This document shows, piece after piece, positions 6,137 through 56,700 of a stretch of DNA of 64,000 nt. Origin of the DNA: Eledone cirrhosa (taxonomy: Eukaryota). The DNA is taken from contig OZ024740.1 in assembly GCA_964016885.1 (NCBI GenBank), positions 118,482,001-118,546,000 on the forward strand. The letters run 5' to 3'. The position numbers and the translations under genes are program-made. The notes beneath the pieces were generated by a model, which saw nothing but the letters and a program-made list of their open reading frames with translations, was not told the origin of the DNA and did no database searches. Every line of letters begins with the position of its first letter. Positions within the stretch are counted from its first letter, which is position 1.

Positions 6137-6218
6137 GCTCTGCTGATGAATGAAATTCAACCGTGACCATCCCCACTGGAAGTTTTCGTGAAATAGTCTT
6201 TTCAAGACTATACAGAGC
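6137..6218 (+). ncRNA. Type I hammerhead ribozyme, canonical core
   Basis: GCTCTG-CTGATGA-ATGAAA..TTTCGT-GAAA-TAGTCTT ttc AAGACTA-TA-CAGAGC. Stems I and III are perfect; predicted cleavage after AUA at 6212. Confidence 0.9.
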
Positions 6219-15364: not shown

Positions 15365-15426
15365 TATTTTATCTGATGAAAGCGTACCAAAGTTTTTAGT
15401 ACCGTTGAAATATATATAATAGAATA
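15365..15426 (+). ncRNA. Type I hammerhead (AT-rich family E)
   Basis: TATTTTAT-CTGATGA-aagcGTAC..GTACcgtt-GAAA-TATATA-TA-ATAGAATA. Confidence 0.7.
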
Positions 15427-16523: not shown

Positions 16524-17460
16524 GATATTAAATAAATGGAAACTATATTTATAAAACCATATTTATTTCATTATATATATTTCAGGGATATCATATTAAC
16601 AATATGTTATGCCTTCTTCAGACAAAATACAATATAGACAGTTTTATAGATAAATAGATTTGACATACCGTTCAACATCGACTTGTATTTGAAAAAGTTG
16701 ATTTGGCAGTGAAAAAATTGTAAACAGAAAGAAAGAAAGAAAGAAAGAAGGAAAGAAAGAAAGAAAGCGACGAAAAAGAAGGAATGCATGCAACAAAATA
16801 GAGAGATGGAGAAATAGATAAAGAGAAGAACTTCATGTAAAGAAACAGAGAGAGATATATAGAGAGAGGAAATAGATAGAGATATATATATATAGAGAAA
16901 AGTAGGTAGTTGAACATCCGTTGAATGACGTATCAATGATACATTTATTTATTTATTTATTTAGCTCTAGTATTAATGTAAGGGATATATATGTGGTTAG
17001 GAAAGAAACCAGCCGTTATATATAGAGAAAAAATGAAAAGTAACTAGACATAGGCGAATTTAAAAATCCTATGTTTCAATGTAGAAATATTAGTTCATAT
17101 AAAAACCAGGCACTATAATGTAAATATCAGTATTCATGAATGAGACACGTATCTAAATGTGTGAAAAGTAATGATCTTATGTCTAGTTTTAAAAATTCAT
17201 ATGTTTATATGATAACTACAAACATCGATGTGAATTTACGTGATCAACTCCGCAAACTCCTATTACACACGGAGAACATTCTCATTGTGCTATAAAAATT
17301 TAAGTATACATATATGTGTATATATACACATATATATAGAGTCTATATTAATTTTAATTTTAACAATACTATTCTTGTCTTTATTCTACATGATTATCTA
17401 TCAAGCAGAAATAGAGAACAGATTTCAATATATTAATAAAAAATATCAGAAACAAAAACA

Positions 17461-17515
<55 letters not shown>

Positions 17516-18085
17516 AAATAAATAAAATAGAAAACTAAAAAATATTACATATTAAAAATAAAAATATAAAAAAATATTAAATAATATTAAAATAATAAAA
17601 ATAAAAATAAGAACATAGTATGCCACGCAAATCGACCACAAAGATCAACCCTTCAAAATTAATTGACAATATATTGCCAAGTTCATTATAAGCATCAGAG
17701 TCGAAAACAGATAAAGCTAAAAATTATTTACCAAATCGCGTCTAGCAGAAATCATTTCAAAAGTTTAGGATGCCCATTTGGTCTACATATGTTCTTATAT
17801 TTAATATAGAAGTTTATCTAGTGTAACGTTTATTCGATATATTTGGAGCATCAACTTTTAGGGTAGTTTAATTTTTCATGAAGAATGTTTAAAATAAAAA
17901 TAAAAATAAAAATAAAAATAAAAATAAAAATAAAAATGGTATGTCAAATCTATTTATCTATAAAACTGTCTATATTGTATTTTGTCTGAAGAAGGCATAA
18001 CATATTGTTAATATGATATCCCTGAAATATATATAATGAAATAAATATGGTTTTATAAATATAGTTTCCATTTATTTAATATCGT
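16522..18085 (+). mobile_element. Non-coding element bounded by about 148-bp inverted repeats that each contain an HHR
   Basis: 16522-16668 is the reverse complement of 17938-18085. The downstream flank is homologous to 15420-15560. Confidence 0.75.
17978..18043 (+). ncRNA. Type I hammerhead (family E); mirror copy at 16564-16629 on minus
   Basis: TATTTTGT-CTGAAGA-aggcataaCATATT gtt AATATGatatccct-GAAA-TATATA-TA-ATGAAATA. Confidence 0.8.
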
Positions 18086-18665: not shown

Positions 18666-19107
18666 TAAACGTAATAGAAAATGCTGACAAGTTGTTCACA
18701 GGGAAAAATTGTTTAATTAGGAATAAGTGAGAATTAGTAATTGTATTGGTTAGTATTCAGTTTTGGTTTTAAGTTTTACCGGTTGCGCATTTCTAATGCT
18801 TTTCAAAAATAATTTTGAGATAGAGCGTCTGTGATGTTTGCTCTGATCTGATTAGTTTTGGGAATTCTACCTGTTTTTATGTTAAAAAAGTGGCTCCAGC
18901 GGTATTAAAATAAGTTTTGCGCCAATTCGTGTTGCAAAAATTCTTGTGGTCAAAATAATTTTGATTTGTCGGTAGAGGTCATCTGAATGCAAAAAATTGA
19001 TTTTGCGCCAAATGTAGGTTTGTGTCGGCTTTTGGCACGAAAACATCGAAAAACTTAAAGAATTTCACACCCTTATAAATGGGCTCCACACGAATATTAA
19101 CTTCACG

Positions 19108-20070
19108 ATGGAATACAGCCATCAACAAGTCCCCTTCCTCGACATCCTCATTAAGATCCATAACAAAAAAATAGAAACAGACATATACTACAAGCCCACA
19201 GACTCCAAGCAATATCTTCCTTTCAACTCTTGCCACCCTAGACACGTTAAAATTAATATTCCCTACAACTTAGCCAAGAGAATCTGTACTATAGTCTCCA
19301 ATAAAAACACCTGCTACTTACGGCTACAAGAACTAAAGGATACACTCATAGGCAGGGACTACCCTGCATCACTAATTGACAATGGAATCCAACGTGCCCT
19401 AAAACTCAGTCCCCAGGACCTTAGACACCCTAAAGTAAATCAACCGAAACTAAAAGCTCTTCCATACATGTCCACACACAACCCCCTCAACAATGAGGCC
19501 TTTGACACCATCCTCCAGAACATCCCTGTGTTGAAAAAGGACCATAGAATGAACCAAATCCTACGAACACACGATATCATAATGAGCAAAAGACAATCTA
19601 AGTCAATGAAAATCATCCTAACACATGCCAAAGTACTGCCAACCACAACAACGAAACCCACAGTAAAAAAATGCGTAAGACCCAACTGTGGCATTTGCAT
19701 CAACCTAATAGAGGGTTCGGAATTCTATTTCAAAGAAGGACAACGTTTTATAGTAAAACACAATTTCACATGTGCATCGGAAAATCTAATATATGTATTA
19801 ACTTGCTCAGGTTGTCGAGAACAATACATAGGCCAGACCAAAAACAGCCTCCGCCAACGCATGACTGTCCATAGAACCCAAATTAAAATACGGGAAGACA
19901 GGAAAATACCACTGAGTGAACACATTGATACCTGTGCCGCCCAAAATCATCCCAACTTCAGAATCTTTCCCCTCTACAAATTTAAAGATGATGCCACCCA
20001 CACCCAGCGCATCAGCAAGGAATCTTACTTTATTAACAGATACGGACCCCGTCTAAACACTTCTCTCTAA
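19108..20070 (+). CDS. PLE RT thumb plus GIY-YIG endonuclease (truncated copy)
   Basis: PFLDI, DIYYKPTDSKQYL..SCHP, C..PNCGIC and NLIYVLTCSGCREQYIGQT..LRQRMTVH motifs. Confidence 0.85.
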   Translation: MEYSHQQVPFLDILIKIHNKKIETDIYYKPTDSKQYLPFNSCHPRHVKINIPYNLAKRICTIVSNKNTCYLRLQELKDTLIGRDYPASLIDNGIQRALKLSPQDLRHPKVNQPKLKALPYMSTHNPLNNEAFDTILQNIPVLKKDHRMNQILRTHDIIMSKRQSKSMKIILTHAKVLPTTTTKPTVKKCVRPNCGICINLIEGSEFYFKEGQRFIVKHNFTCASENLIYVLTCSGCREQYIGQTKNSLRQRMTVHRTQIKIREDRKIPLSEHIDTCAAQNHPNFRIFPLYKFKDDATHTQRISKESYFINRYGPRLNTSL

Positions 20071-26289: not shown

Positions 26290-26660
26290 TGTAACTACAG
26301 TAAGTAAGGTACTCAATACATAGCAGAGTATAAAAGTTTTAATATAGAAGAGGTTCTACAGGACTAGAATTGTTTCATTCATGAGAAATCATCAGGAATC
26401 TGACTGTCCAAGTAAATATGGCGGTATTTATATCTTTTCTGGTGGTAGGAGAGGGTGGGGAGTGGGATGGGTGGAGGTCATTGGTTGAAAGAAAAGGGAA
26501 TTCATTAAAAGCTAATACTTTAAATCTATAATTTATATTTAGAGTGACAAAGGCTGAAAGAATTCTATAAACAAGTTCAAATTGGAGGGCCACTCCTTAT
26601 TTTTAAGTTTTTCTTAAGCTAACAATGCCTATATTTCAGGTGCCTATAAGATCGTTATAT
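26290..26660 (-). mobile_element. pLTR-like repeat (family D); copies at 34645-34805 (+), 52700-53185 (-) and 61530-61670
   Basis: Shared ggtaggagagggt..gaggtcattggttga.agaaaagggaattcattaaaagcta. The 34645 copy is the inverted end of a GIY-YIG fragment. Confidence 0.75.
26354..26400 (-). ncRNA. Type I hammerhead (family D)
   Basis: Minus: gaTTC-CTGATGA-tTTC tcat GAAt-GAAA-CAa..cTG-TA-GAA. Confidence 0.7.
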
Positions 26661-27905: not shown

Positions 27906-27972
27906 TATTTTATCTGATGAGGACGTACTGTTGAAAATAGCTCAGTACCTCTGAAATATGTATAATAAAATA
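27906..27972 (+). ncRNA. Type I hammerhead (family E)
   Basis: TATTTTAT-CTGATGA-ggacGTACTG..CAGTACctct-GAAA-TATGTA-TA-ATAAAATA, with a perfect 8-bp stem I. Confidence 0.85.
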
Positions 27973-28214: not shown

Positions 28215-28721
28215 ATTTATATATATATATATATATATATTGGTAAACGGAATAGAAAATGCTGACAAATTGTTCACAGTTGAAAAATGGTTTAATTAGG
28301 AATAAAAGAGTATTAGTGATTGTATGGGTTAGTATTCAGATGTGGTTTTAAGTTTTTAAGTTTTTACCGGTTGCGCATTTCTAAATGCTTTTCAAAAATA
28401 ATTTTGAGATAGTATTTTTTTAACATAAAAACAGGTAGAATTCCCAAAACTAATCAGATCAGAGCAAACAGCACGGACACTCTATCTCAAAATTATTTTT
28501 GAAAAGCATTTAGAAATGCGCAACCGGTAAAAACTTAAAAACTTAAAACCACATCTGAATACTAACCCATACATTCACTAATACTCTTTTATTCCTAATT
28601 AAACCATTTTTCAACTGTGAACAATTTGTCAGCATTTTCTATTCCGTTTACCAATATATAATAACTTGTGTGTTACACCTCTATTCTTTTAACTATCATA
28701 TCCTCACACGAGATACAGAAA

Positions 28722-30032
28722 ATGCCAACAAAATCGGATACAACCCTCATCAACTTAAATGAAGAGATCCTACAGGAACTCAAGAAAATCAACACCAACC
28801 TATCTTTGCTGGTCGACAAACTTGACTCCACAAATAAGGAAACCGCCACCGGATACAAACCCTCCGAAATCGGCGACATACTCCAAAACCTTTGCGATAC
28901 TATCCAAACTATGTTCACTACTACCAACCCAGGAAAAACCAACGAAGAACCATGTGAGATTGATTCACACAAAATGAAAATTCGAACAATTCCAAAATGG
29001 AACAAATCCCTCAGAGACAGAAAGTTCTCATTCTGGAAGATGATACAAAATCACAACAAAGCAGAGATATATGAAAAATGGCTTAACTCAACCCCTCTAA
29101 CTCTCCCCCGTAAACTACAAATAAAGTCCATTCCAAATGAACCCGAACCTCAAAGACACCTTAGGGAAAGAATGGCATTGGAAAAAATGAAGACAGAAAT
29201 TGAACTTCTTAAACTGAGGGCCCAGACAAATGAGGAAAAAATCAAAACCATCGATGAAGAGATCCTCCTGGAAATCAACAACAAAACTGAAGGCCCCAAG
29301 GTAGAGAAGATCTCCAAATTATGGAAAGGGGACTGCAACAGAGAAGAACTGAAATCCCTTCAACGCTGGGAAAAAAGTGCCGCTTGGTTCCTACACTATG
29401 AATCGACTTTTTAAACGGATTACACCTCCAATAACCCGTTCATAAAAATAGGAAAACCCATAACTGAACCGCACAACAACTTCTCAAACCCCCAAGCCAC
29501 AAACAAACGAAGAAGGAAGCACCACACCGAAGATGAACTTCCCAACCTCGCTACCATAAGAAGGAACAAAAACCCAAGAAATCATCTCCCCCAGAATGAC
29601 ATTTACAACTTTCCCCCTTCAAGGAGACACCATACCAAATCACTCAACTACTACGCGGATTCCTCATCGTCAAACATAGGGAAAAGATACCACCGCCATG
29701 ATAGATGCAACAACTTCCCCGCCTCAAGGGGACAGCAAGGTAATTACCATTTTCTCAACTCTCACTTCCACAATACACAACAAACCCACACCACACGATA
29801 CAACCAACAACGTAGGCCACTTATAACACCACAATACAACATGGCACATAGAAACACACACCCATACTCGCAGTACAGGAACACCCCATTCAATCTACAA
29901 CCACCAACCCGAACCACATTTTACAACAACAAGGAATATAACAAACACAGGAGACCACTTAACATCAGCAGACAACCCCTCTACCCCAACCATTTTTTAG
30001 ACACAGCACACAGATACAGGCAAACAAAATAA
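28722..30032 (+). pseudogene. ORF1 of family F (charged helical N-half, N/H/R/Q-rich C-half), one internal TAA at 29412
   Basis: ORFs 28668-29414 and 29841-30032 share one frame, which stays open between them. Confidence 0.7.
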
Positions 30033-30167
30033 CACAAGACGGAGGAGAAACCGATAGTAATAAAAATTATCAATCTTACTAGTGCAGAACCAACACCCAA
30101 CCTTATCAACTTACTCTCCAAAGGTCTTAAATTCACACCGACCCCACTACGTCCTAACTACTATGAA

Positions 30168-32315
30168 ATGAAGGAAGACATCACAGACTTCTGTAGAAAG
30201 TTACGACTTAGTGAACAACTATTCGACCAGTACAATGAGGATGAATCATTAGCCAGAAATAGAAGCAATTACACCCCTTCAAAAGGTAGAAATAAAATCC
30301 TGGACGAATTCTGTGAACACATCACAAACTTCCCTTACCAACACTTGCACAGACAAAAACACAAGCCAAACCTCAACAAGAAAGAATGGGAAGAATTAAA
30401 TAGATTAAAAACCGACAGAACCATTACAATTAAAGAGGCTGATAAAGGGAGTACAGTAGTCCTAATGGAGACAGAATTCTATATCAACTTAGCGCTCTCC
30501 ACTTTGGAAAACGAAACATACTACGAAAAGGCTGAACACTACAATCAACAGAAAATTATGAGAAACCTAAAAACTCTAATCAACCAATACAAAGAAGGAC
30601 TCACTAACAAGGAATTCAGCTTCATCACAGACTTCACAAGTAAATCCAGCCTTTTCTACGGTATCCCTAAAGTACATAAAAGCGAATCAATCAGTAAGGC
30701 ATGCAAGGAAGCCACAGACATAGTCATCAATGTCCCCTCACCCAATGATCTCAAATTAAGACCTATAATAGCAGGCCCCGCTTGCGAAACGCACCGTCTT
30801 AGCAACTTCATTGATACCCTTCTCAAACCCTTCCTTAAGCACATCAAAAGCTATATAAGGGACGACCTAGATATGCTCAATCACCTCCCTAATATGCCAC
30901 TTTCTGAACAAACCCTACTAGTGACGTTCGATGTAGTCAACCTATACTCCAACATCCCCCACAACCTAGGAATAGAAGCTATCCAATTCTGGCTGGATAA
31001 CTTCCACAATGAACTCCCACAACGCATCAAAAAAGAATTCGTGATAGAGGGACTCAAATTTATCTTGGAGAACAATTACTTCGTTTTCAATAACAAACCC
31101 TACAGGCAGAAATCTGGGACCGCTATGGGAACGAAAACAGCCCCTACGTATGCCAACCTAGTCATGGGATACCTGGAAATCACCCTCTACACTAAAGTCC
31201 TAAACAAATTTGGAAACACCCTCCACTTACACATTGAAAGCAACTGGAAGCGATATCTTGATGACTGCTTCATCCTTTGGCACGAAAACATCGAAAAACT
31301 TAAAGAATTTCACACCCTTATAAATGGGCTCAACACAAATATTAACTTCACGATGGAATACAGCCATCAACAACTCCCCTTCCTCGACATCCTCATTAAG
31401 ATCCATAACAAAAAAATAGAAACAGACATATACTACAAGCCCACAGACTCCAAGCAATACCTCCCCTTCAACTCTTGCCACCCTAGACACGTTAAAATTA
31501 ATATTCCCTACAACTTAGCCAAGAGAATCTGTACTATAGTCTCCAATAAAAACATCTGCTACTTACGGCTACAAGAACTAAAGGACACACTCATAGGCAG
31601 GGACTACCCTGCATCACTAATTGACAATGGAATCCAACGTGCCCTAAAACTCAGTACCCAGGACCTTAGACACCCTAAAGTAAATCAACCAAAACTAAAA
31701 GCTCTTCCATACATCTCCACACACAACCCCCTCAACAACGAGGCCTTTGACACCATCCTCCAGAACATCCCTGTATTGAAAAAGGACCATAGAATGAACC
31801 AAATTCTACGAACACACGATATCATAAAGAGCAAAAGACAATCCAAGTCAATGAAAAACATCTTAACACATGCCAAAGTACTGCCAACCACAACAACGAA
31901 ACCCACAGTAAAAAAATGCGATAGACCCAACTGTGGCATTTGCATCAACCTAATAGAGGGTTCGGAATTCTATTTCAAAGATGGACAACGTTTTATAGTA
32001 AAACACAATTTCACATGTGCATCGGAAAATTTAATATATGTATTAACTTGTTCAGGTTGTCGAGAACAATACATAGGCCAGACCAAATACAGCCTCCGCC
32101 AACGCATGACTGTCCATAGATCCCAAATTAAAATACGGGAATACAGGAAAATACCACTGAGTGAACACATTGATACCTGCGCCGCCCAAAATCATCCCAA
32201 CTTCAGAATCTTTCCCCTCTACAAATTTAAAGATAATACCACCCACACCCAGCGCATCAGCAAGGAATCTTACTTCATTAACAAATACGGACCCCGTCTA
32301 AACACTTCTCCCTAA
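30168..32315 (+). CDS. PLE reverse transcriptase plus GIY-YIG endonuclease, uninterrupted (frame open from 30033)
   Basis: IKEADKGS, FYGIPKVHK, LRPIIAG, FDVVNLYSNIPH, GTAMGT, RYLDD, PFLD and LIY..C..C..QYIGQT motifs. Confidence 0.95.
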   Translation: MKEDITDFCRKLRLSEQLFDQYNEDESLARNRSNYTPSKGRNKILDEFCEHITNFPYQHLHRQKHKPNLNKKEWEELNRLKTDRTITIKEADKGSTVVLMETEFYINLALSTLENETYYEKAEHYNQQKIMRNLKTLINQYKEGLTNKEFSFITDFTSKSSLFYGIPKVHKSESISKACKEATDIVINVPSPNDLKLRPIIAGPACETHRLSNFIDTLLKPFLKHIKSYIRDDLDMLNHLPNMPLSEQTLLVTFDVVNLYSNIPHNLGIEAIQFWLDNFHNELPQRIKKEFVIEGLKFILENNYFVFNNKPYRQKSGTAMGTKTAPTYANLVMGYLEITLYTKVLNKFGNTLHLHIESNWKRYLDDCFILWHENIEKLKEFHTLINGLNTNINFTMEYSHQQLPFLDILIKIHNKKIETDIYYKPTDSKQYLPFNSCHPRHVKINIPYNLAKRICTIVSNKNICYLRLQELKDTLIGRDYPASLIDNGIQRALKLSTQDLRHPKVNQPKLKALPYISTHNPLNNEAFDTILQNIPVLKKDHRMNQILRTHDIIKSKRQSKSMKNILTHAKVLPTTTTKPTVKKCDRPNCGICINLIEGSEFYFKDGQRFIVKHNFTCASENLIYVLTCSGCREQYIGQTKYSLRQRMTVHRSQIKIREYRKIPLSEHIDTCAAQNHPNFRIFPLYKFKDNTTHTQRISKESYFINKYGPRLNTSP

Positions 32316-33939: not shown

Positions 33940-34645
33940 GTACTCATAAATATCCACATATACACAGACACATATATACATCTCTACATGCAGAAAGAGC
34001 AGATAGGTAAGAAGCACTTACATAATCATAGTGCTGTGTCTTGTGTCGAGAGGGGGGGGGGGGGTAGAGGGGATATGTTGTCGGCTGGATTTTAAAAAAA
34101 AAAGGGAAATCTTTTTTAGCCATCTAGCATTAACACTGGCTTACGGTATTTGAAAGCTGCAAAGTTTTTGTGCATGCAATTCGGGCAGTGTTCGGAGAGT
34201 TTGTTCAGTAGCGGGCCCTTGGCGAATAATATTTCGTAGCTCTCTGAGATACAAAGGTCGCAGCACTTGTGTCCTCCGTTGTATGAGCGCGCTTTCTGGA
34301 GTATTTCAGGTCCCAAACATAGGAGGCGAATGTTGTCTGAATTGATTTGTCCGGTCTTTGAAGGAGTGGGTATGGGCATACCACCGGGTCTTAAAATTAT
34401 TGGAAGTCATGCAGATGTAAGTCTTTTTGTTGTTGCTATCATCAGTGCCTGAGATGACATCACATTTGTATACAAGGTCATTTGTCAGGCATTTATTTTC
34501 AAGTGGGCAGACTTCCTTCTTTAAATAGTTGCACAAGGCTTCAGTCCGGGGATTGGGTTAGGAGGTTGTTGCCTTATTTAATTTTTTAGAATTGAGATTA
34601 GCTATATTCCTAGCTAGGTTAGGTGTAGTGGAGTATCCAATTTGA
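33940..34645 (-). mobile_element. PLE GIY-YIG 3' fragment; homolog at 59800-60130
   Basis: CPLENKCLTNDLVYKC..TYICMT..FKTRWYAH and CDLCISESYEI..LLNKLSE motifs. The 3' UTR is shared with 59800-59900. Confidence 0.85.
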
Positions 34646-34814
34646 ACTTGTTTATAGAATTCTTTCTGCCTTTGTCACTCTAAATATAAATTATAGCTTT
34701 AAAGAATTAGCTTTTAATGAATTCCCTTTTCTATCAACCAATGACCTCTACCCAACCCACTCCCTACCCTCTCCTACCACCTGAAGAGACCTATAAATAC
34801 CATAAAGGCAGACA

Positions 34815-36110
34815 ATTTCTGTCAACAAATTACTGGCGAAACATCTCTTTGGGTTTGTACGTGTGTTATATAGTTATAGAGGTATTTATTTATGCTTTAA
34901 TTTATATTTTTAATTATCGTGTCTATAGTCTGCCTTTCATAGGTTATAGATTCCATACACTGGTGGTTTTTTCCCTGATTTATTGATAGCACACTGTATA
35001 TCTCTCTCTGGTGTGTTACCTTTTCAACATATTGTATTTTAAAGAGCTCAGGATTTCTTCTCCTTTGAGCACATAACTTACAGGGAATTGTGAGGGCCTA
35101 TGGCTCCGTTAATTTATCGTGATATTTCGCTCCTTATAACAGTCTTTCCTATCTCTCTGTTTGGTTGAGCACTCTTCTCTGAGTGGTTTTGGGCTGCCCT
35201 TACTAGGAGCTCGTCCCTCAGAGGCCACTGGTTCACTGCCCTTAAACACGCTGTGACTTCTCTCTCCCACGTGTAGCTGGACAGTCACTTTTAAAATTCT
35301 CTTAGTGTTGTCTGAAATGTATAGCCTACACACGCTGATGAACCGAGTTATTCCATTTCTGTCAACAAATTACTGGCGAAACATCTCTTTGTATTTGTAC
35401 GTGTGTTATATAGTTATAGAGGTATTTATTTACGCTTTAATTTATATTTTTAATTATCGTGTCTATAGTCTGCCTTTCATAGGTTATAGATTCCATACAC
35501 TGGTGGTTTTTTACCCTGTTTTATTGATAGCGCACTGTATATCTCTCTCTGGTGTGTTACCTGTTGAACATATTGTATTTTAAAGAGCTCAGGATTTCTT
35601 CTCCTTTGAGCACATAATTTACCGGGAATTGTGGGGGCTTATGGCTCCGTTAATTTATCGTGATATTTCGCTCCTTATAACAGTGTTTCCTATCTTTCTG
35701 TTTGGTTGAGCACACTTCTCTGAGTGGTTTTGGGCTGCCCTTTCTAGCAGCTCGTCCCTCAGAGGCCACTGGTTCACTGCCCTTAAACACGCTGTGACTT
35801 CTCTCTCCCACGTGTAGCTGGACAGTCACTTTTAAAATTCTCTTAGTGTTGTCTGAAATGTATAGCCTTACACACGCTGATGAACCGAGTTATTCCATTT
35901 CTGTCAACAAATTACTGGCGAAACATCTCTTTGGATTTGTACGTGTGTTATGTAGTTATAGAGGTATTTATTTACGCTTTAATTTATATTTTTAATTATC
36001 GTGTCTATATTCTGCCTTTCATAGGTTATAGATTCCATACACTGGTGGTTTTTTCCCTGTTTTATTGATAGCGCACTGTATATCTATCTCTGGTGTGTTA
36101 CCTTTTCAAC

Positions 36111-36115
<5 letters not shown>
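34815..36115 (+). repeat. HHR-bearing non-coding tandem repeat, about 2.4 x 540-542 bp
   Basis: Unit starts at 34815, 35355 and 35897, highly similar to each other. Confidence 0.95.
35328..35406 (+). ncRNA. Type I hammerhead; second copy at 35870-35948
   Basis: ACACACG-CTGATGA-aCCgAGT..ACTGGc-GAAA-CA..TG-TA-CGTGTGT. Confidence 0.85.
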
Positions 36116-36176
<61 letters not shown>

Positions 36177-36242
36177 AATATATATATGTATACATATACA
36201 TATATACATACATATACATATATATATATATATGGAAAAGAA

Positions 36243-36765
36243 TGTATACGTACATACATACATGTATACAGACGTACAGTGGTATGTATATATATACATA
36301 CATGCACACATATATACATGTGCCCATACGTACATGTATATATGTACTTATATTTAAGTATCAGCCGTACTAAGAGTGAGAAATGAAATTTCGTTTCATT
36401 CTTTTCCATTTATCGTTTTCGGTACGCTCGACCGATTATCTCACTCGATATGCAAATTAGGCTTGTCAGCCGTTAATATGCATAAGGAGGGTATATACTT
36501 TCAAACGTTCAATCATTTGAGAGGAAGGTATACGATGCTGACGATAGCTAATAAGCTTGAAACTAGTTCATCGTTCCTTTGTCAGTGTTGAACAAAAGAG
36601 CGACGATGGTTGCCGAACATAGTACGGCGTAATTCGGGCTGTTTGTTTACAAAGAAACCGAACATTATAATAAATGTTCGCTGAACCCATACGTACATGT
36701 ATATATGTGTGCATGTATGTATATATATACATATTACTGTACGTCTGTATACATATATATATATA
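36243..36765 (+). repeat. Diverged single copy of the about 475-bp HHR unit with short inverted 5' piece
   Basis: Reverse-complement homology to 58296-58773. Confidence 0.8.
36532..36574 (+). ncRNA. Minimal type I hammerhead
   Basis: ACGATG-CTGACGA-tAGCT aata AGCTt-GAAA-CTAG-TT-CATCGT. Confidence 0.85.
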
Positions 36766-51482: not shown

Positions 51483-52682
<1,200 letters not shown>

Positions 52683-52767: not shown

Positions 52768-52818
52768 AAATTCTACAGGACTAGAACTGTTTCATTCTTT
52801 AGAAATCATCAGGAATCT
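52768..52818 (-). ncRNA. Type I hammerhead (family D)
   Basis: Minus: AGATTC-CTGATGA-tTTC taaa GAAt-GAAA-CAG ttctagtc CTG-TA-GAATTT. Confidence 0.85.
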
Positions 52819-53358
52819 GGGTATCAAAAAATAAATATGGTATTTATAGATCTCTTCAGGTGGTAGGAGAGGGTAGGGAGTGAGATGGGTAGAGGTCATT
52901 GGTTGATAGAAAAGGGAATTCATTAAAAGCTAATTCTTTAAAGCTATAATTTATATTTAGAGCAACAAAGGCAGAGAGAATTCTATAAACAAGTACAGAA
53001 TGGGGTGCCACTCCTTATTTTTAAGTTTCTCTTAAGCTAACAATGCCTATATTTCAGGTGTCTATGAGATCGTTGGGGGTCAGTCATGGTTGAAGGATGT
53101 AAAGAAAAGGGAAATTCTTTAAAAGCTAATTCTTTAAAGTTCTACTTAGTGACAAAGGCCGATAGAATTCTATAGATCAGTTCAAAATATTGAGTGCATA
53201 TCATACCATTATCTTCAAATTTCTCTTAAACTATATTGCAAAAGTCAACAGACACATTCACAAACACACACACTAACACACTCCCCCCCCCCCACGCGCC
53301 CACATATATACAATATATATACACATATATATACATACATACACATATATACACACAT

Positions 53359-53737: not shown

Positions 53738-56700
53738 AATATCTTTAAGTCGTTTGGAAGCCTCGACAATGCAAATGGGTAAATCTCCGGGTAACAAGAT
53801 CCGGTGGTGGAGAGAGAGATGTAAGAGGGTGTACGTTGAGATGCGTGGTGTGTATAAGATGTGTAAGATGTGTAGAAGAATGAAGGGAAGAGTATAAAGG
53901 ATAAAATAAAAATAACAACACAAGAGAGAGTTACCTTGGGAGAGATTTAATAGTCCCTATATATTTCGGATTCACATCCATCAACTGGGGTTTTTTTCCG
54001 GGGTGGGGGAAAGGTTGTCTCTCGGACAGGTGCGAAACGCGTCCTTCGCTGTTTGTTGTTTGAATATCTGAGGTATTCGGCAGAGCGCGCGTGCGCGGGA
54101 AATGGGGTCGGTCGGGCAGAGGTCAGCGGCCGAATGAGGGAGTGGGGTGGCGCTAGCTGTCAGTCCATTCTCTACCTGTTTGTTAAATGTTACTGTGTGT
54201 GTGTGTGCGTGTGTTGTTGTCTCGCTTGAGTGTGTGTGTGTGTGCGTGTGTTGTTGCCTTGTTCCTCTGTATTGGCAGTGTAGTATGTTCGTATGGTGGA
54301 ATGCTACTGTGTGTGTGTGCGTGTGTGTGTGCAGTTGTCTCGTTTGTGTGCGTGTGTTGTGTGTTGCTGCATCGTTTGTTAACTTAAACCAGCCATCTCA
54401 TTTCGCTTCTCTCTGATCGGTTGTTTATTTGCGGTTGCAGGCGTTTGATAAAAAGCGCTTCCTTGATACGTAACGTGCCGAAGTTTCTTTCAGTCGCTAG
54501 AATTGTGACAATGTGCCTTCCGTCTTTGTTTCCGCATTTTTCTATGTGTTTCCGGAAAGATGAGGCCCTGGTTTTAGTGTGTTCCTTGATCCGGATTTGC
54601 AAAGATCGGATTGTGCTACCTATGTAGTATTGGTTGCACCTGTCACATTCTATCTTATACACGACGTATGTGCGTAGGCAACAGTTCGCATGGCGTGTCG
54701 GGCAGTCTCTGAGGGAGCATGCGTTAGTAGATTTCCCGGGTTTCCTGGAGAGGCATCTTCGCAGGGAGGGGCCCGAGTGGGCCAGGTGGATGTCGAGGCC
54801 CTCCCTCCGTATAGCCTTGCGGATAGCGTTGGTGGTATTCTCGCCCAGGTGTGGAATTTTAAGGAAGCACTTGCCTTGGGTGCCTCTCTGTCTCTTGTGT
54901 CTGGTGTCTCCTATTATGTCTGTGATCGAGGTAGGGTACCCGTTCGTCTCCAGCATCTCGAGTAATCGCTTGGTATGAGTGACACCACTCGAGGGATCGC
55001 TGCATCTGTTTTTGATTCGCGCGATCTCGTTCGTGATGTATACTCTTTTAGAACTGTTAGGGAGGGCGGACTTGTAGTGAACGAACAGGTCCCTGCAGGC
55101 TGCCTTTCGGTAGAAGTTGCAGTGGATCCTTCCCTGTTCCGTGATGTTGATTCGGAAGTCGAGGAGGGCAAGTGACCCGTCTTCGTTGGGGTGTTCAACA
55201 CTGAAGTCAATGTTCTCGTCCGTGTTGTTGAACGTCTGATAGATTCTGTTCGCCGTGTCTTGGGAAGATGTGAGGTTGAGGATATTGTCCACGTACCTTG
55301 TGAAAAAGGCTACAGCGTTTGGGTGGCAGGCGTTGAGTGCCTTGCGGTCGAGGTTGTCCATGTAAGAGATCGCTAGCACACCTGATAGGCTTGATCCCAT
55401 GGGCAATCCCGAGGTTTGTTGGTATATTTGGTCAAGGAATCCGAAGTAGGTGTTGTCGACGACGATGGATAGGATTTGGTGGATGTCAGTGGTGGTGAGC
55501 CCGAAGCAGTGTAGGTCGGTGGATTGGACGCGTTCCATCAGTATATTGAGGGTCGGGAGGGCCTGGACCGAGGTGTAGAGAGCGACTACATCAAGGCTGA
55601 AGGCATATCTGTTATTCCTTCTGGTGTCGGGATCCATTTGATGCAGGCGCTTCAACACCTCCTCGGAGCAGTTAACGTGTCCCGGCAAGGTGTCTAAGAT
55701 GGGTTTGAGTATTCTGGCTAGGAGCCATGAAATTTTGTAGAGTGGTCCCTCCACGTTCGATACGATGGGCCTGATCTTCAGGTCAGGTCCCTGTTTGTGT
55801 ATTTTCACGAGGTGGTAGAAGGCGGGTAGTCTGCTGTTCCTCGTGAGGAGGTTGTATCTCAGCTTCTTCGGGAGCTTCCGCCGGTCGCAGATGTTGGGCG
55901 GCGTTGACGTGCGCTTCTATCTGCGCGGGAGTGATTCCCGTGACCTTGGAGTAGAGGTTGTCATCGTCAAGGTGTTGGAGGGCCAGGGTGTTGTAGGCCT
56001 CTCTGCTGATGACGCAGAATTCTTTTCCCTTGTCGGAGGGGAGATAGATGAGGTTCTTCGATTTTAGGTTGGAGAGAGTGGTGAGTTGAGATTTGGTGAC
56101 GTTATGTGTTGTGCATGTGTGTGTGTGTTTGTGAAGTATATCCGAGATGGAGTGTTTTAGCCTGATGAGTTTAGTGTCGAGTTCGTGGTTGGTGGGTGGG
56201 GGGTGGAGTGGGTTGTCGGGGTGGTAAGTGGCGGAACTTGGGGTGGGTTGCGTGGGCGCTGTTATTTTCTGTGGCGCTGTTGATGGCGGTCACCAATTTA
56301 AGTTGGTAAGCGGCTCGACAGAAGTTGGCCTCGATGTTGAGTTTGAGTCTGTCGTCGAGACGTTGTGAGACGATGAACTTGGGTCAGAGGTGTAGGAGTT
56401 TCAGCTCGTCGCTCGTGAGAGTGCCGGTTAGGTCGGTGACCAGGTGCGTCGCATCGTTGAGGTATGGCTCGGTGTTGGTGGATGCGGCGGTGGGGGTTGT
56501 TAAGTTGTTGTTTCCCACGTGGTTCTGGTCCGTCTGTTCGTTAGTGTCGATGTTCTCGTTGTGGTGTTTCGACGAGATCCACTCATATTCTCGCTTGAGC
56601 CGTTTTTTCTGGTATTGGACTCTGGAGTGGTAGCACTGGTCGATTGCTTTAGTGATTTCAGGAGCAAGTCCCCGGGTGCCATTGGCAGTCAATGTGTCCG

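What the first reader, a model, noticed from the sequence alone, without database searches (positions are those of the whole stretch)
34815..36115. 540-bp tandem with a long-loop-II hammerhead, larger than typical animal retrozymes
Perfect 7-bp stem I, canonical core, GUA site and a loop II of about 23 nt. The predicted monomer is 542 nt (35400-35941) and has no credible ORF. Animal retrozyme monomers are usually a few hundred nt and mostly under about 400. The array abuts a family D pLTR piece.
Basis: partly seen in the sequence, partly recalled or inferred. Interest (0 to 1): 0.75.

Follow-up and report, generated by a model that had tools for sequence, protein, structure and literature searches.

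The report
Hammerhead-bearing Penelope-type tandem retroelement copy
This is a 5'-truncated, decayed copy of a dispersed 542-base non-coding tandem repeat that carries a hammerhead-ribozyme motif and the insertion marks of Penelope-like retrotransposons; it is likely a 'retrozyme' of a kind and size already described, so the catch is correct but ordinary.

Summary
The tandem is real: a 45-bp unit end, units of 540 and 542 bp, then 175-179 bp of a further unit, running straight into an (AT)n microsatellite. The hammerhead motif is real and far beyond chance: 0 hits in 200 shuffles of the window against 5 real hits. It is weaker than described. The pair closing helix II is an A.C mismatch, and the hammerhead fold is about 6 kcal/mol worse than a competing fold.

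The unit belongs to a dispersed family (155 matches listed from 40 of 2737 candidates scored). All 27 loci studied have a variable 5' truncation, seamless units, and no reverse transcriptase between units. Forty of 41 element ends lie near unit position 179 or 267, and 39 of 41 abut (AT)n. Fourteen loci have a head-to-head inverted arm. These are Penelope-like-element signatures, so this is a non-autonomous 'non-LTR retrozyme', not the terminal repeat of an ORF-bearing element.

The size is not exceptional. Published vertebrate retrozyme consensus lengths span 51-972 bp, and a roughly 500-bp hammerhead satellite is known in cave crickets. Cleavage, circular RNA and the autonomous partner remain untested or unfound.

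Verdict: new member of a known kind, low interest.

The parts
34636..34804 (+).
   Evidence: 93-95% identical copies at 52836-53003(-) and 26423-26586(-). Those copies continue into GATTC-CTGATGA-...-GAAA-...CTGTA|GAATTT and end in (TA)n. Contigs of public runs diverge at 34804 into the same continuation (table 7).
34805..34814 (+). 10 bases between the two repeats that belong to neither
   Evidence: Read from the sequence.
34815..34859 (+). 5'-truncated first unit (unit positions 498-542). It holds only the 3' half of a hammerhead motif (GAAA, helix III, GUA) and lacks CUGAUGA and the 5' strand of stem I.
34860..35399 (+). Full unit 1 (540 bp)
   Evidence: 96.9% identical to unit 2.
35328..35406 (+). 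Hammerhead motif A: stem I 35328-35334/35400-35406, CUGAUGA 35335-35341, A10.1 35342, C11.1 35377, GAAA 35378-35381, predicted cut 35399|35400. It carries a private G>T change in the distal part of helix III.
   Evidence: The hammerhead-constrained fold is -7.6 against a free minimum of -13.3 kcal/mol.
35400..35941 (+). Full unit 2 (542 bp). It is the only monomer in this locus bounded by two complete hammerhead motifs.
   Evidence: RNA fold -137 kcal/mol, z -2.39 against 100 shuffles.
35870..35948 (+). Hammerhead motif B, predicted cut 35941|35942
   Evidence: The hammerhead-constrained fold is -10.3 against a free minimum of -16.0 kcal/mol.
35942..36119 (+). 3' partial unit ending at about unit position 175-179, one of the two regular 3' ends of the family
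36116..36340 (.). (AT)n then AT/AC-rich microsatellite abutting the 3' end: a tail and/or the target of insertion
   Evidence: The same junction is seen at 23 of 24 '179' ends and 16 of 17 '267' ends in other loci.

Best explanation
The array is one old, 5'-truncated insertion of a dispersed, non-coding 542-bp tandem retroelement that carries a type I hammerhead motif; it is likely a non-autonomous passenger of Penelope-like elements (a 'non-LTR retrozyme').

Shown directly:
- the unit, the motif and the lack of an ORF;
- many dispersed copies with variable 5' truncation and seamless unit junctions;
- two fixed 3' ends (about unit positions 179 and 267) that abut (AT)n;
- frequent head-to-head inverted arms.

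Inferred:
- A Penelope-type reverse transcriptase with GIY-YIG endonuclease, supplied in trans, would nick (TA)n microsatellites and prime cDNA on the element's RNA at two internal AUAU/GUAU sites.
- It would run through several units on a multimeric or circular template.
- In transcripts of the family's source copies (not identified), the hammerhead is predicted to cut between units and release 542-nt monomers that a cellular ligase could circularise.

For the window's own copies the ribozyme is predicted to be weak at best.
For: Family and dispersal:
- 155 matches are listed from 40 of 2737 first-look candidates scored, on many contigs, at 89-97% identity for near-full-length matches.
- Exact 39-40-mers of the motif's 3' half occur 48, 21 and 116 times for the three subtypes, with reversed controls at 0.

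Architecture in 27 independent loci (30 fetched, 3 overlapping ones dropped):
- 5' starts vary (unit positions 25 to 508), there are 0-3 full units, and junctions are seamless.
- 23 of 24 '179' ends and 16 of 17 '267' ends abut (AT)n.
- 14 of 27 loci have an inverted 5'-truncated arm.
- These features are described for Penelope-like elements: partial tandems, an inverted 5'-truncated copy, a 'tail' at one end, and (TA)n targets (PMC8557442, passages read).

No ORF inside arrays:
- tblastn with three Penelope-like ORFs from the window hit only one locus, outside the array. That fragment and a second one are separate truncated elements lying behind the (TA)n.

The genome is rich in potential helpers:
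- 10,595 GIY-YIG candidates.
- ORFs in the window with RVT_1 and/or GIY-YIG.

Motif beyond chance: 0 hits in 200 shuffles.

Constraint on the motif:
- 9 of the 14 subtype-diagnostic columns lie in the 79-nt motif. They fall at N7, loop II, 11.1 and the inner part of helix III. None falls in the core boxes or stem I.
- The helix changes are one-sided and raise pairing. C>U at 11.1 gives A-U. A>C in helix II gives G-C. An AG insertion or C>A gives a 7-8-bp helix III.

[quoted passage not shown] 2026, Methods read): met here.
Against: - No RNA evidence: no RNA run holds the stretch.
- The hammerhead fold is 0.7-9.4 kcal/mol worse than the free fold in all seven copies tested. A helix AUGAACCGAG(G)/CUUUGGAUUUGU competes with it.
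- 10.1/11.1 is A.C in the window and in the two commoner subtypes. A G-C pair is usual there; I recall this and did not find it in the papers read.
- No two-sided compensatory change was seen, so there is no formal covariation.
- No Rfam hammerhead model matches.
- Li et al. 2026 found self-cleavage in only 1 of 9 predicted Xenopus retrozyme dimers (Results read).
- The insert's 3' ends are not at the ribozyme cut, so cleavage is not needed to explain them.
- The autonomous partner was not found among 43 Penelope-like copies examined.
- A variant with an unrelated 373-bp 5' part and a motif lacking the 5' strand of stem I has also spread. An intact upstream ribozyme is therefore not required for spread.
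Confidence: 0.6

Rival explanations
1. The element is mobile and Penelope-dependent, but the hammerhead motif is an inherited relic that no longer cleaves. Multimeric linear read-through transcripts, not circles, would be the template.
For: The hammerhead fold is disfavoured by about 6 kcal/mol in the window copies. There is an A.C at 10.1/11.1. The 3' ends are unrelated to the cut site. Five of 41 arms start at unit position 498, 45 nt before the cut, which could mark a transcript start or a reverse-transcriptase stop. The variant with a broken upstream motif has spread. Only 1 of 9 predicted Xenopus dimers cleaved (Li et al. 2026, Results read).
Against: All 9 diagnostic changes in the motif avoid the core and stem I, and those in helices improve hammerhead pairing. 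The N7 U>G change weakens the competing helix.
Confidence: 0.3
2. It is the ordinary terminal repeat (pLTR), or a tail-end fragment, of an ORF-bearing Penelope-like element.
For: The insertion architecture is that of Penelope-like elements. Earlier notes of this scan on other genomes often ended with this verdict (leads only). Only 40 of 2737 candidates were scored, so rare ORF-bearing relatives could have been missed.
Against: None of 27 loci has an ORF between units, and arrays of 2-4 seamless 542-bp units exist. The unit has no similarity to the 3 Penelope-like copies in the window, to 30 GIY-YIG loci (only a 66-bp truncated copy sitting in a microsatellite), or to 10 long-ORF loci.
Confidence: 0.07
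3. It is a satellite grown by unequal crossing-over, not by retrotransposition.
For: It is tandem. Intra-array identity is sometimes high (99.6-100% in one array). A 2.3-kb local duplication containing a variant exists.
Against: Short arrays lie on many chromosomes and share the same two 3' ends, (AT)n junctions, variable 5' truncation and inverted arms.
Confidence: 0.03

Closest known systems
Non-LTR retrozymes of animals (Cervera & de la Pena 2020, PMC7229834; Li, Clavereau & Pollet 2026, bioRxiv 10.64898/2026.07.22.740005)
   Same: Low-GC (39.5%) non-coding tandem units, each with a type I hammerhead. Copies are dispersed, occur together with Penelope-like elements, and meet the criterion of two consecutive complete motifs.
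   Different: Expression and circles have not been shown here. The motif has a long loop II (about 23 nt) and an A.C at 10.1/11.1. The 542-bp unit is above the 170-400 nt of the 2020 paper but inside the 51-972 bp of the 2026 preprint.
Insertion architecture of Penelope-like elements (Craig et al. 2021, PMC8557442)
   Same: 5' truncation, partial tandems, an adjacent inverted 5'-truncated copy, an extension present at only one end, and a (TA)n target bias.
   Different: There is no RT/GIY-YIG ORF. The one-sided extension is 88 bp here (unit positions 180-267), against the 30-40 bp described.
Minimal hammerheads in the terminal repeats of Penelope-like elements (Cervera & de la Pena 2014, PMC4209133)
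   Same: A type I motif within the repeated part of a Penelope-type element, with irregularity at the core end of helix II. Other motifs in this window have A-U or U.U at 10.1/11.1.
   Different: Here stem I is long (7 bp) and helix III is a real hairpin (5-8 pairs). The described minimal motifs have a 4-5-bp stem I and almost no helix III, and are thought to act as dimers.
pDo500 satellite of Dolichopoda cave crickets (PMC2837043) and newt/axolotl satellite 2
   Same: Tandem repeats of about 330-500 bp with an embedded hammerhead that processes multimeric transcripts.
   Different: Those are described mainly as satellites. This family occurs as short dispersed arrays with retrotransposon-type ends.

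Membership tests
Hammerhead ribozyme, type I | Conserved core: CUGANGA, GAAA, and a U-H cleavage dinucleotide in the right order | tested here: met
   The core is kept in all three subtypes, and the free position N7 is the one that varies (U or G).
Hammerhead ribozyme, type I | Three helices around the core, with helix I open | tested here: inconclusive
   Stem I is 7 Watson-Crick pairs. Helix III is 2 pairs, a bulge, then 3 pairs in the window type and 7-8 pairs in subtype 2. Helix II starts with an A.C mismatch, then has 2-3 pairs, a bulge and 3 pairs.
Hammerhead ribozyme, type I | The hammerhead fold is the favoured structure of the segment | tested here: not met
   The constrained fold is -7.6/-10.3 against a free fold of -13.3/-16.0 kcal/mol for the window copies. 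The gap is 0.7-9.4 kcal/mol over all seven copies folded, including other subtypes. In pDo500, 113 of 198 sequences also did not have it as the minimum (PMC2837043).
Hammerhead ribozyme, type I | Match to a curated covariance model (Rfam) | tested here: inconclusive
   No hammerhead hit at E<=10 in 141-181-base searches. Two other hammerhead motifs of the window are not hit either.
Hammerhead ribozyme, type I | Site-specific self-cleavage | not testable with these tools
   Needs in vitro transcription.
Non-LTR retrozyme | Tandem units with at least two consecutive complete hammerhead motifs and no ORF | tested here: met
Non-LTR retrozyme | Dispersed, mobilised copies | tested here: met
Non-LTR retrozyme | Expressed as linear and circular monomer RNA | not testable with these tools
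   No RNA run is listed. The contigs laid are of unknown kind.
Penelope-like element (autonomous) | ORF with a reverse transcriptase and a GIY-YIG endonuclease | tested here: not met
   No ORF lies inside any of 27 arrays, so the element is at most a non-autonomous dependant.
Penelope-like element (insertion signature) | 5' truncation, partial tandem, inverted 5'-truncated neighbour, one-sided tail, microsatellite target | tested here: met
   The window copy itself shows truncation, the tandem and the (AT)n junction, but has no inverted arm.
Penelope-like element (dependence) | An autonomous partner sharing the 3' end or the hammerhead | tested here: inconclusive
   Not found in 43 copies sampled. 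Only a small part of more than 10,000 candidates was seen.

The most novel reading that the evidence does not exclude
The family's footprints record rolling-circle reverse transcription of a monomeric circular RNA. Units are seamless. There are just two fixed internal priming sites per unit (about positions 179 and 267). In every clear head-to-head insertion, one arm uses one site and the other arm uses the other site (12 of 12 in fetched loci, plus 5 of 5 read from the match table). This is what two DNA ends priming on one 542-nt circle would give. If so, it would be sequence-level evidence for how animal retrozymes, and the one-sided 'tail' of Penelope-like elements, arise.
Probability: 0.2. 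Interest if true: 0.6.

Novelty: new member of a known kind. Interest (0 to 1): 0.27.

Why it matters
The finding adds one more hammerhead-bearing, Penelope-type non-autonomous family, of a size already within the published range, so it changes little.

Its modest value is as material. The family has three subtypes whose hammerheads differ in exactly the pairs that should matter: A.C against A-U at 10.1/11.1, and helix III with 0, 1 or 2 mismatches. That is a natural series for testing whether ribozyme strength tracks copy number.

Its two fixed 3' ends, always paired one of each in twin insertions, are a clean read-out for how Penelope-type reverse transcription starts.

Tried and rejected
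RNA evidence: no RNA holder is listed for the stretch. The four runs laid are contigs of unknown kind. They show only very high word depth and many variant joints, with no starts or ends.

Rfam: nothing at gathering score in the window, and no hammerhead at E<=10. The control motifs were missed too, so this says little.

Autonomous partner, not found in any of these:
- the unit against the whole window;
- 30 GIY-YIG loci (the only hit is a 66-bp truncated copy inside a microsatellite);
- 10 long-ORF Penelope-like loci;
- a hammerhead scan of those 10 loci, which found other motif families only.

ORF fragments next to two arrays turned out to be unrelated truncated elements lying behind the (TA)n.

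The 373-bp 5' part of the variant is a repeat of its own (54 matches listed, 201 candidates) and shows no coding similarity. Pairs of its matches about 2.0-2.3 kb apart led me to fetch three regions. I read one of them, which is a local duplication of genomic sequence and not an element unit with an ORF.

Formal covariation: all helix changes are one-sided, and the aligner puts helix III of the subtypes in different registers. I therefore did not run the pair counter, and I claim no covariation.

blastx of the unit against Penelope-like proteins gave only E>2 noise.

This scan's notes hold nothing on this genome or sequence.

A paper search for how 10.1/11.1 variants behave found nothing usable in the passages read.

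Full report
**What is in the sequence.** The repeat finder gives three direct copies starting at 34815, 35355 and 35897, with spacing 540 and 542. Tandem Repeats Finder missed the array because its longest period is 500. BLAST of the proposed monomer (35400-35941) on the window resolves four parts:
- 34815-34859, unit positions 498-542;
- 34860-35399, a full unit;
- 35400-35941, a full unit;
- 35942-36119, unit positions 1-179.

An (AT)n run begins at 36116. The two full units are 96.9% identical. GC is 39.5%. The longest stop-free stretch in a trimer is 92 aa. It is hydrophobic, spans the unit junction, and is not preserved in 32 other units, where the longest is 48-107 aa. The absence of a credible ORF is confirmed.

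**The hammerhead motif.** Each complete junction reads ACACACG-CUGAUGA-A-CCGAGU...ACUGG-C-GAAA-CAUCUCUUUG(G/U)AUUUGUA|CGUGUGU. The 7-bp stem I, both core boxes and the GUA site are present.

- A relaxed descriptor found 0 hits in 200 dinucleotide-preserving shuffles of the 64-kb window. The real window gave 5 hits, two of them these copies.
- The pair next to the core (10.1/11.1) is A.C.
- Helix II is short and bulged, with a loop of about 23 nt.
- The hammerhead fold is not the predicted minimum. It scores -7.6 against -13.3 kcal/mol for copy A and -10.3 against -16.0 for copy B. The segment AUGAACCGAG(G) can pair with CUUUGGAUUUGU instead.
- Both window copies share a private one-base deletion in helix II. 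Copy A has a further private change in helix III.
- The first motif copy, at the 5' edge, lacks CUGAUGA and the 5' strand of stem I. Only the 35400-35941 monomer is bounded by two complete motifs.
- No Rfam hammerhead model matches, even in 141-181-base searches at E<=10. Two other hammerhead motifs of this window are missed as well, so that miss carries little weight.

**The family.** In the window's own 3.0-Gb genome the monomer has 155 listed matches from 40 scored of 2737 first-look candidates. They lie on many contigs, at 89-97% identity for near-full-length matches. I studied 27 independent loci: 30 were fetched and 3 overlapping ones dropped. Every insertion has the same anatomy:
- a first unit truncated at a variable position;
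- 0-3 full units joined seamlessly;
- a last partial unit.

The last unit ends either at about position 174-183 (...CAACATATTGTAT) or at about 262-267 (...TTTATCGTGATAT). It is followed directly by (AT)n in 23 of 24 and 16 of 17 cases. Fourteen of the 27 loci also carry a head-to-head, 5'-truncated inverted arm.

Partial tandems, an inverted truncated neighbour, an extension at one end only, and (TA)n targets are the published marks of Penelope-like element insertions (PMC8557442, passages read). The window copy is a single-arm example: position 498 to 542, two units, then 1 to about 179, then (AT)n.

**Not an ordinary terminal repeat.**
- No reverse-transcriptase or GIY-YIG similarity lies inside any of the 27 arrays.
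- Two ORF fragments next to arrays are unrelated, truncated Penelope-like copies sitting behind the (TA)n.
- The unit has no similarity elsewhere in the window, although the window holds Penelope-like ORFs: two with RVT_1 plus GIY-YIG and one with GIY-YIG alone.
- It has none in 30 GIY-YIG loci. The one hit is a 66-bp truncated copy in a microsatellite.
- It has none in 10 long-ORF Penelope-like loci.

The genome has at least 10,595 GIY-YIG candidates, so helpers are plentiful. The specific partner was not found, and my sample is small.

**Is the motif under constraint?** Thirty-three full units fall into three subtypes. Of the 14 columns that distinguish them, 9 lie in the 79-nt motif. They are N7 (U/G), four loop II positions, 11.1 (C/U), an AG insertion, and a C/A site in helix III. 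None lies in the core boxes or stem I. By my own arithmetic, the chance of 9 of 9 avoiding those 26 positions is about 0.03.

The helix changes are one-sided, but each raises hammerhead pairing:
- C>U turns A.C into A-U;
- A>C makes a G-C pair in helix II;
- the AG insertion or C>A closes mismatches in helix III.

The constrained energies run -9.5 for the window's subtype without its private changes (-7.6 and -10.3 for the window's own two copies), -12.3 to -14.3 (subtype 3) and -15.4 (subtype 2). Exact 39-40-mers of the three 3' halves occur 48, 21 and 116 times, so the best-paired subtype is the commonest in this crude count. Private, post-insertion changes hit the core about as often as the rest of the unit, as expected for dead copies. 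No two-sided compensatory change exists, so I claim constraint but not covariation.

**Mechanism.**

*Shown:* the termini, the truncations and the microsatellite junctions.

*Inferred:*
- A Penelope-type enzyme supplied in trans nicks (TA)n, and the DNA end anneals to GUAU or AUAU at unit position 179 or 267.
- cDNA synthesis then runs back through several units. That needs a multimeric or circular template, because the unit junctions are seamless and do not coincide with the 3' ends.
- The hammerhead would cut multimers into 542-nt monomers, which a tRNA ligase could circularise, as shown for other retrozymes (PMC7229834, passages read).

*Against a necessary ribozyme step:*
- the weak predicted fold;
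- the A.C pair;
- a spread variant whose upstream motif lacks the 5' strand of stem I and whose 5' part is an unrelated 373-bp sequence;
- the report that only 1 of 9 predicted Xenopus retrozyme dimers cleaved (Li et al. 2026, Results read).

**Comparison and novelty.** The 2020 description gives circles of about 170-400 nt (PMC7229834). The 2026 preprint gives family consensus lengths of 51-972 bp, averaging 650 bp in ray-finned fishes. It argues that retrozymes derive from the terminal repeats of Penelope-like elements (abstract, Methods section 5, Results and Discussion read; supplements not available). A roughly 500-bp hammerhead satellite has long been known in cave crickets (PMC2837043). 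A 542-bp unit is therefore not exceptional.

The finding is a correct catch of a new member of a known kind. Earlier notes of this scan on other genomes mostly ended as 'ordinary truncated Penelope-like ends'. I tested that reading here, and the multi-unit ORF-free arrays speak against it.

**The one thing worth a second look.** In all 12 clear head-to-head pairs among the fetched loci, one arm ends at about 179 and the other at about 267. Two further pairs have an end at neither site. The same holds in 5 more pairs readable from the match table. Single arms use either end. The 88-bp difference is the counterpart of the 30-40-bp one-sided 'tail' described for Penelope-like elements. It could mean that two DNA ends prime on one small circular RNA with one site of each kind. 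It could equally mean an odd-staggered cut in (TA)n that leaves two different primer ends. I could not separate these.

Noticed in passing
Loci L004, L005, L008, L010, L014, L015, L016, L018, L021, L023, L028, L029; further pairs in the match table: In head-to-head twin insertions one arm always ends at about unit position 179 and the other at about 267 (12 of 12 clear pairs, plus 5 read from the table). Pairs L009 and L019 have an end at neither site. Single arms use either end (about 10 against 3).
   Followed up: partly
L011, L012, L026, L061-L072 (for example L012:1068-1500): A variant element: an unrelated 373-bp 5' part that begins right after (AT)n, joined to a hammerhead motif lacking the 5' strand of stem I, then unit positions 1-179 or more. 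The 5' part contains two CACGTG boxes and a TTTGGCGCCAAAA palindrome that look like promoter sites to me (recalled motifs, not tested). 54 matches were listed from 201 candidates.
   Followed up: partly
window 36538-36568 (+): Another compact hammerhead-like motif (6-bp stem I, CUGACGA, GAAA, a helix III with a 2-nt loop) about 200 bp beyond the microsatellite that follows the array. It probably belongs to yet another element landed in the same microsatellite.
   Followed up: no
window 34636-34814: The neighbouring repeat piece has an intact 5' edge (shared with its two other copies) but is cut at its 3' side exactly where the array begins, with 10 unassigned bases between. This could be a template switch between two element RNAs during one insertion, or a later deletion.
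   Followed up: no
window 6137-6218, 15365-15426, 17978-18043, 16564-16629(-), 27906-27972, 51920-51961(-), 52056-52097, 52768-52813(-), 26350-26395(-): At least five further hammerhead motif families. Most have A-U, G.U or U.U rather than G-C at 10.1/11.1. None reaches any Rfam hammerhead threshold.
   Followed up: partly
window 28665-32315 (+), 19018-20070 (+), 54384-55916 (-): Penelope-like ORFs: the first and third match RVT_1 plus GIY-YIG, the second GIY-YIG alone. The first is 1216 codons long with two in-frame stops. It has a hammerhead motif about 700 bp upstream and (TA)n about 115 bp after its stop.
   Followed up: partly
L013, L019, L020, L021, L022, L028: A sub-lineage of subtype 3 carries a 14-nt tandem duplication inside helix III / loop III of the motif (12 nt in L022). 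It enlarges the loop without touching the core.
   Followed up: no
Arms in L001, L016, L018, L021, L025: Five of 41 arms start at unit position 498, inside loop II and 45 nt before the predicted cut. This could be a transcript start or a favoured stop of reverse transcription.
   Followed up: no
L073 (G000:C4:113166500-113175500): A 2.3-kb stretch holding the variant element plus about 1.5 kb of unrelated sequence is duplicated in tandem. Similar pairs lie about 2.0-2.3 kb apart at two other places.
   Followed up: partly
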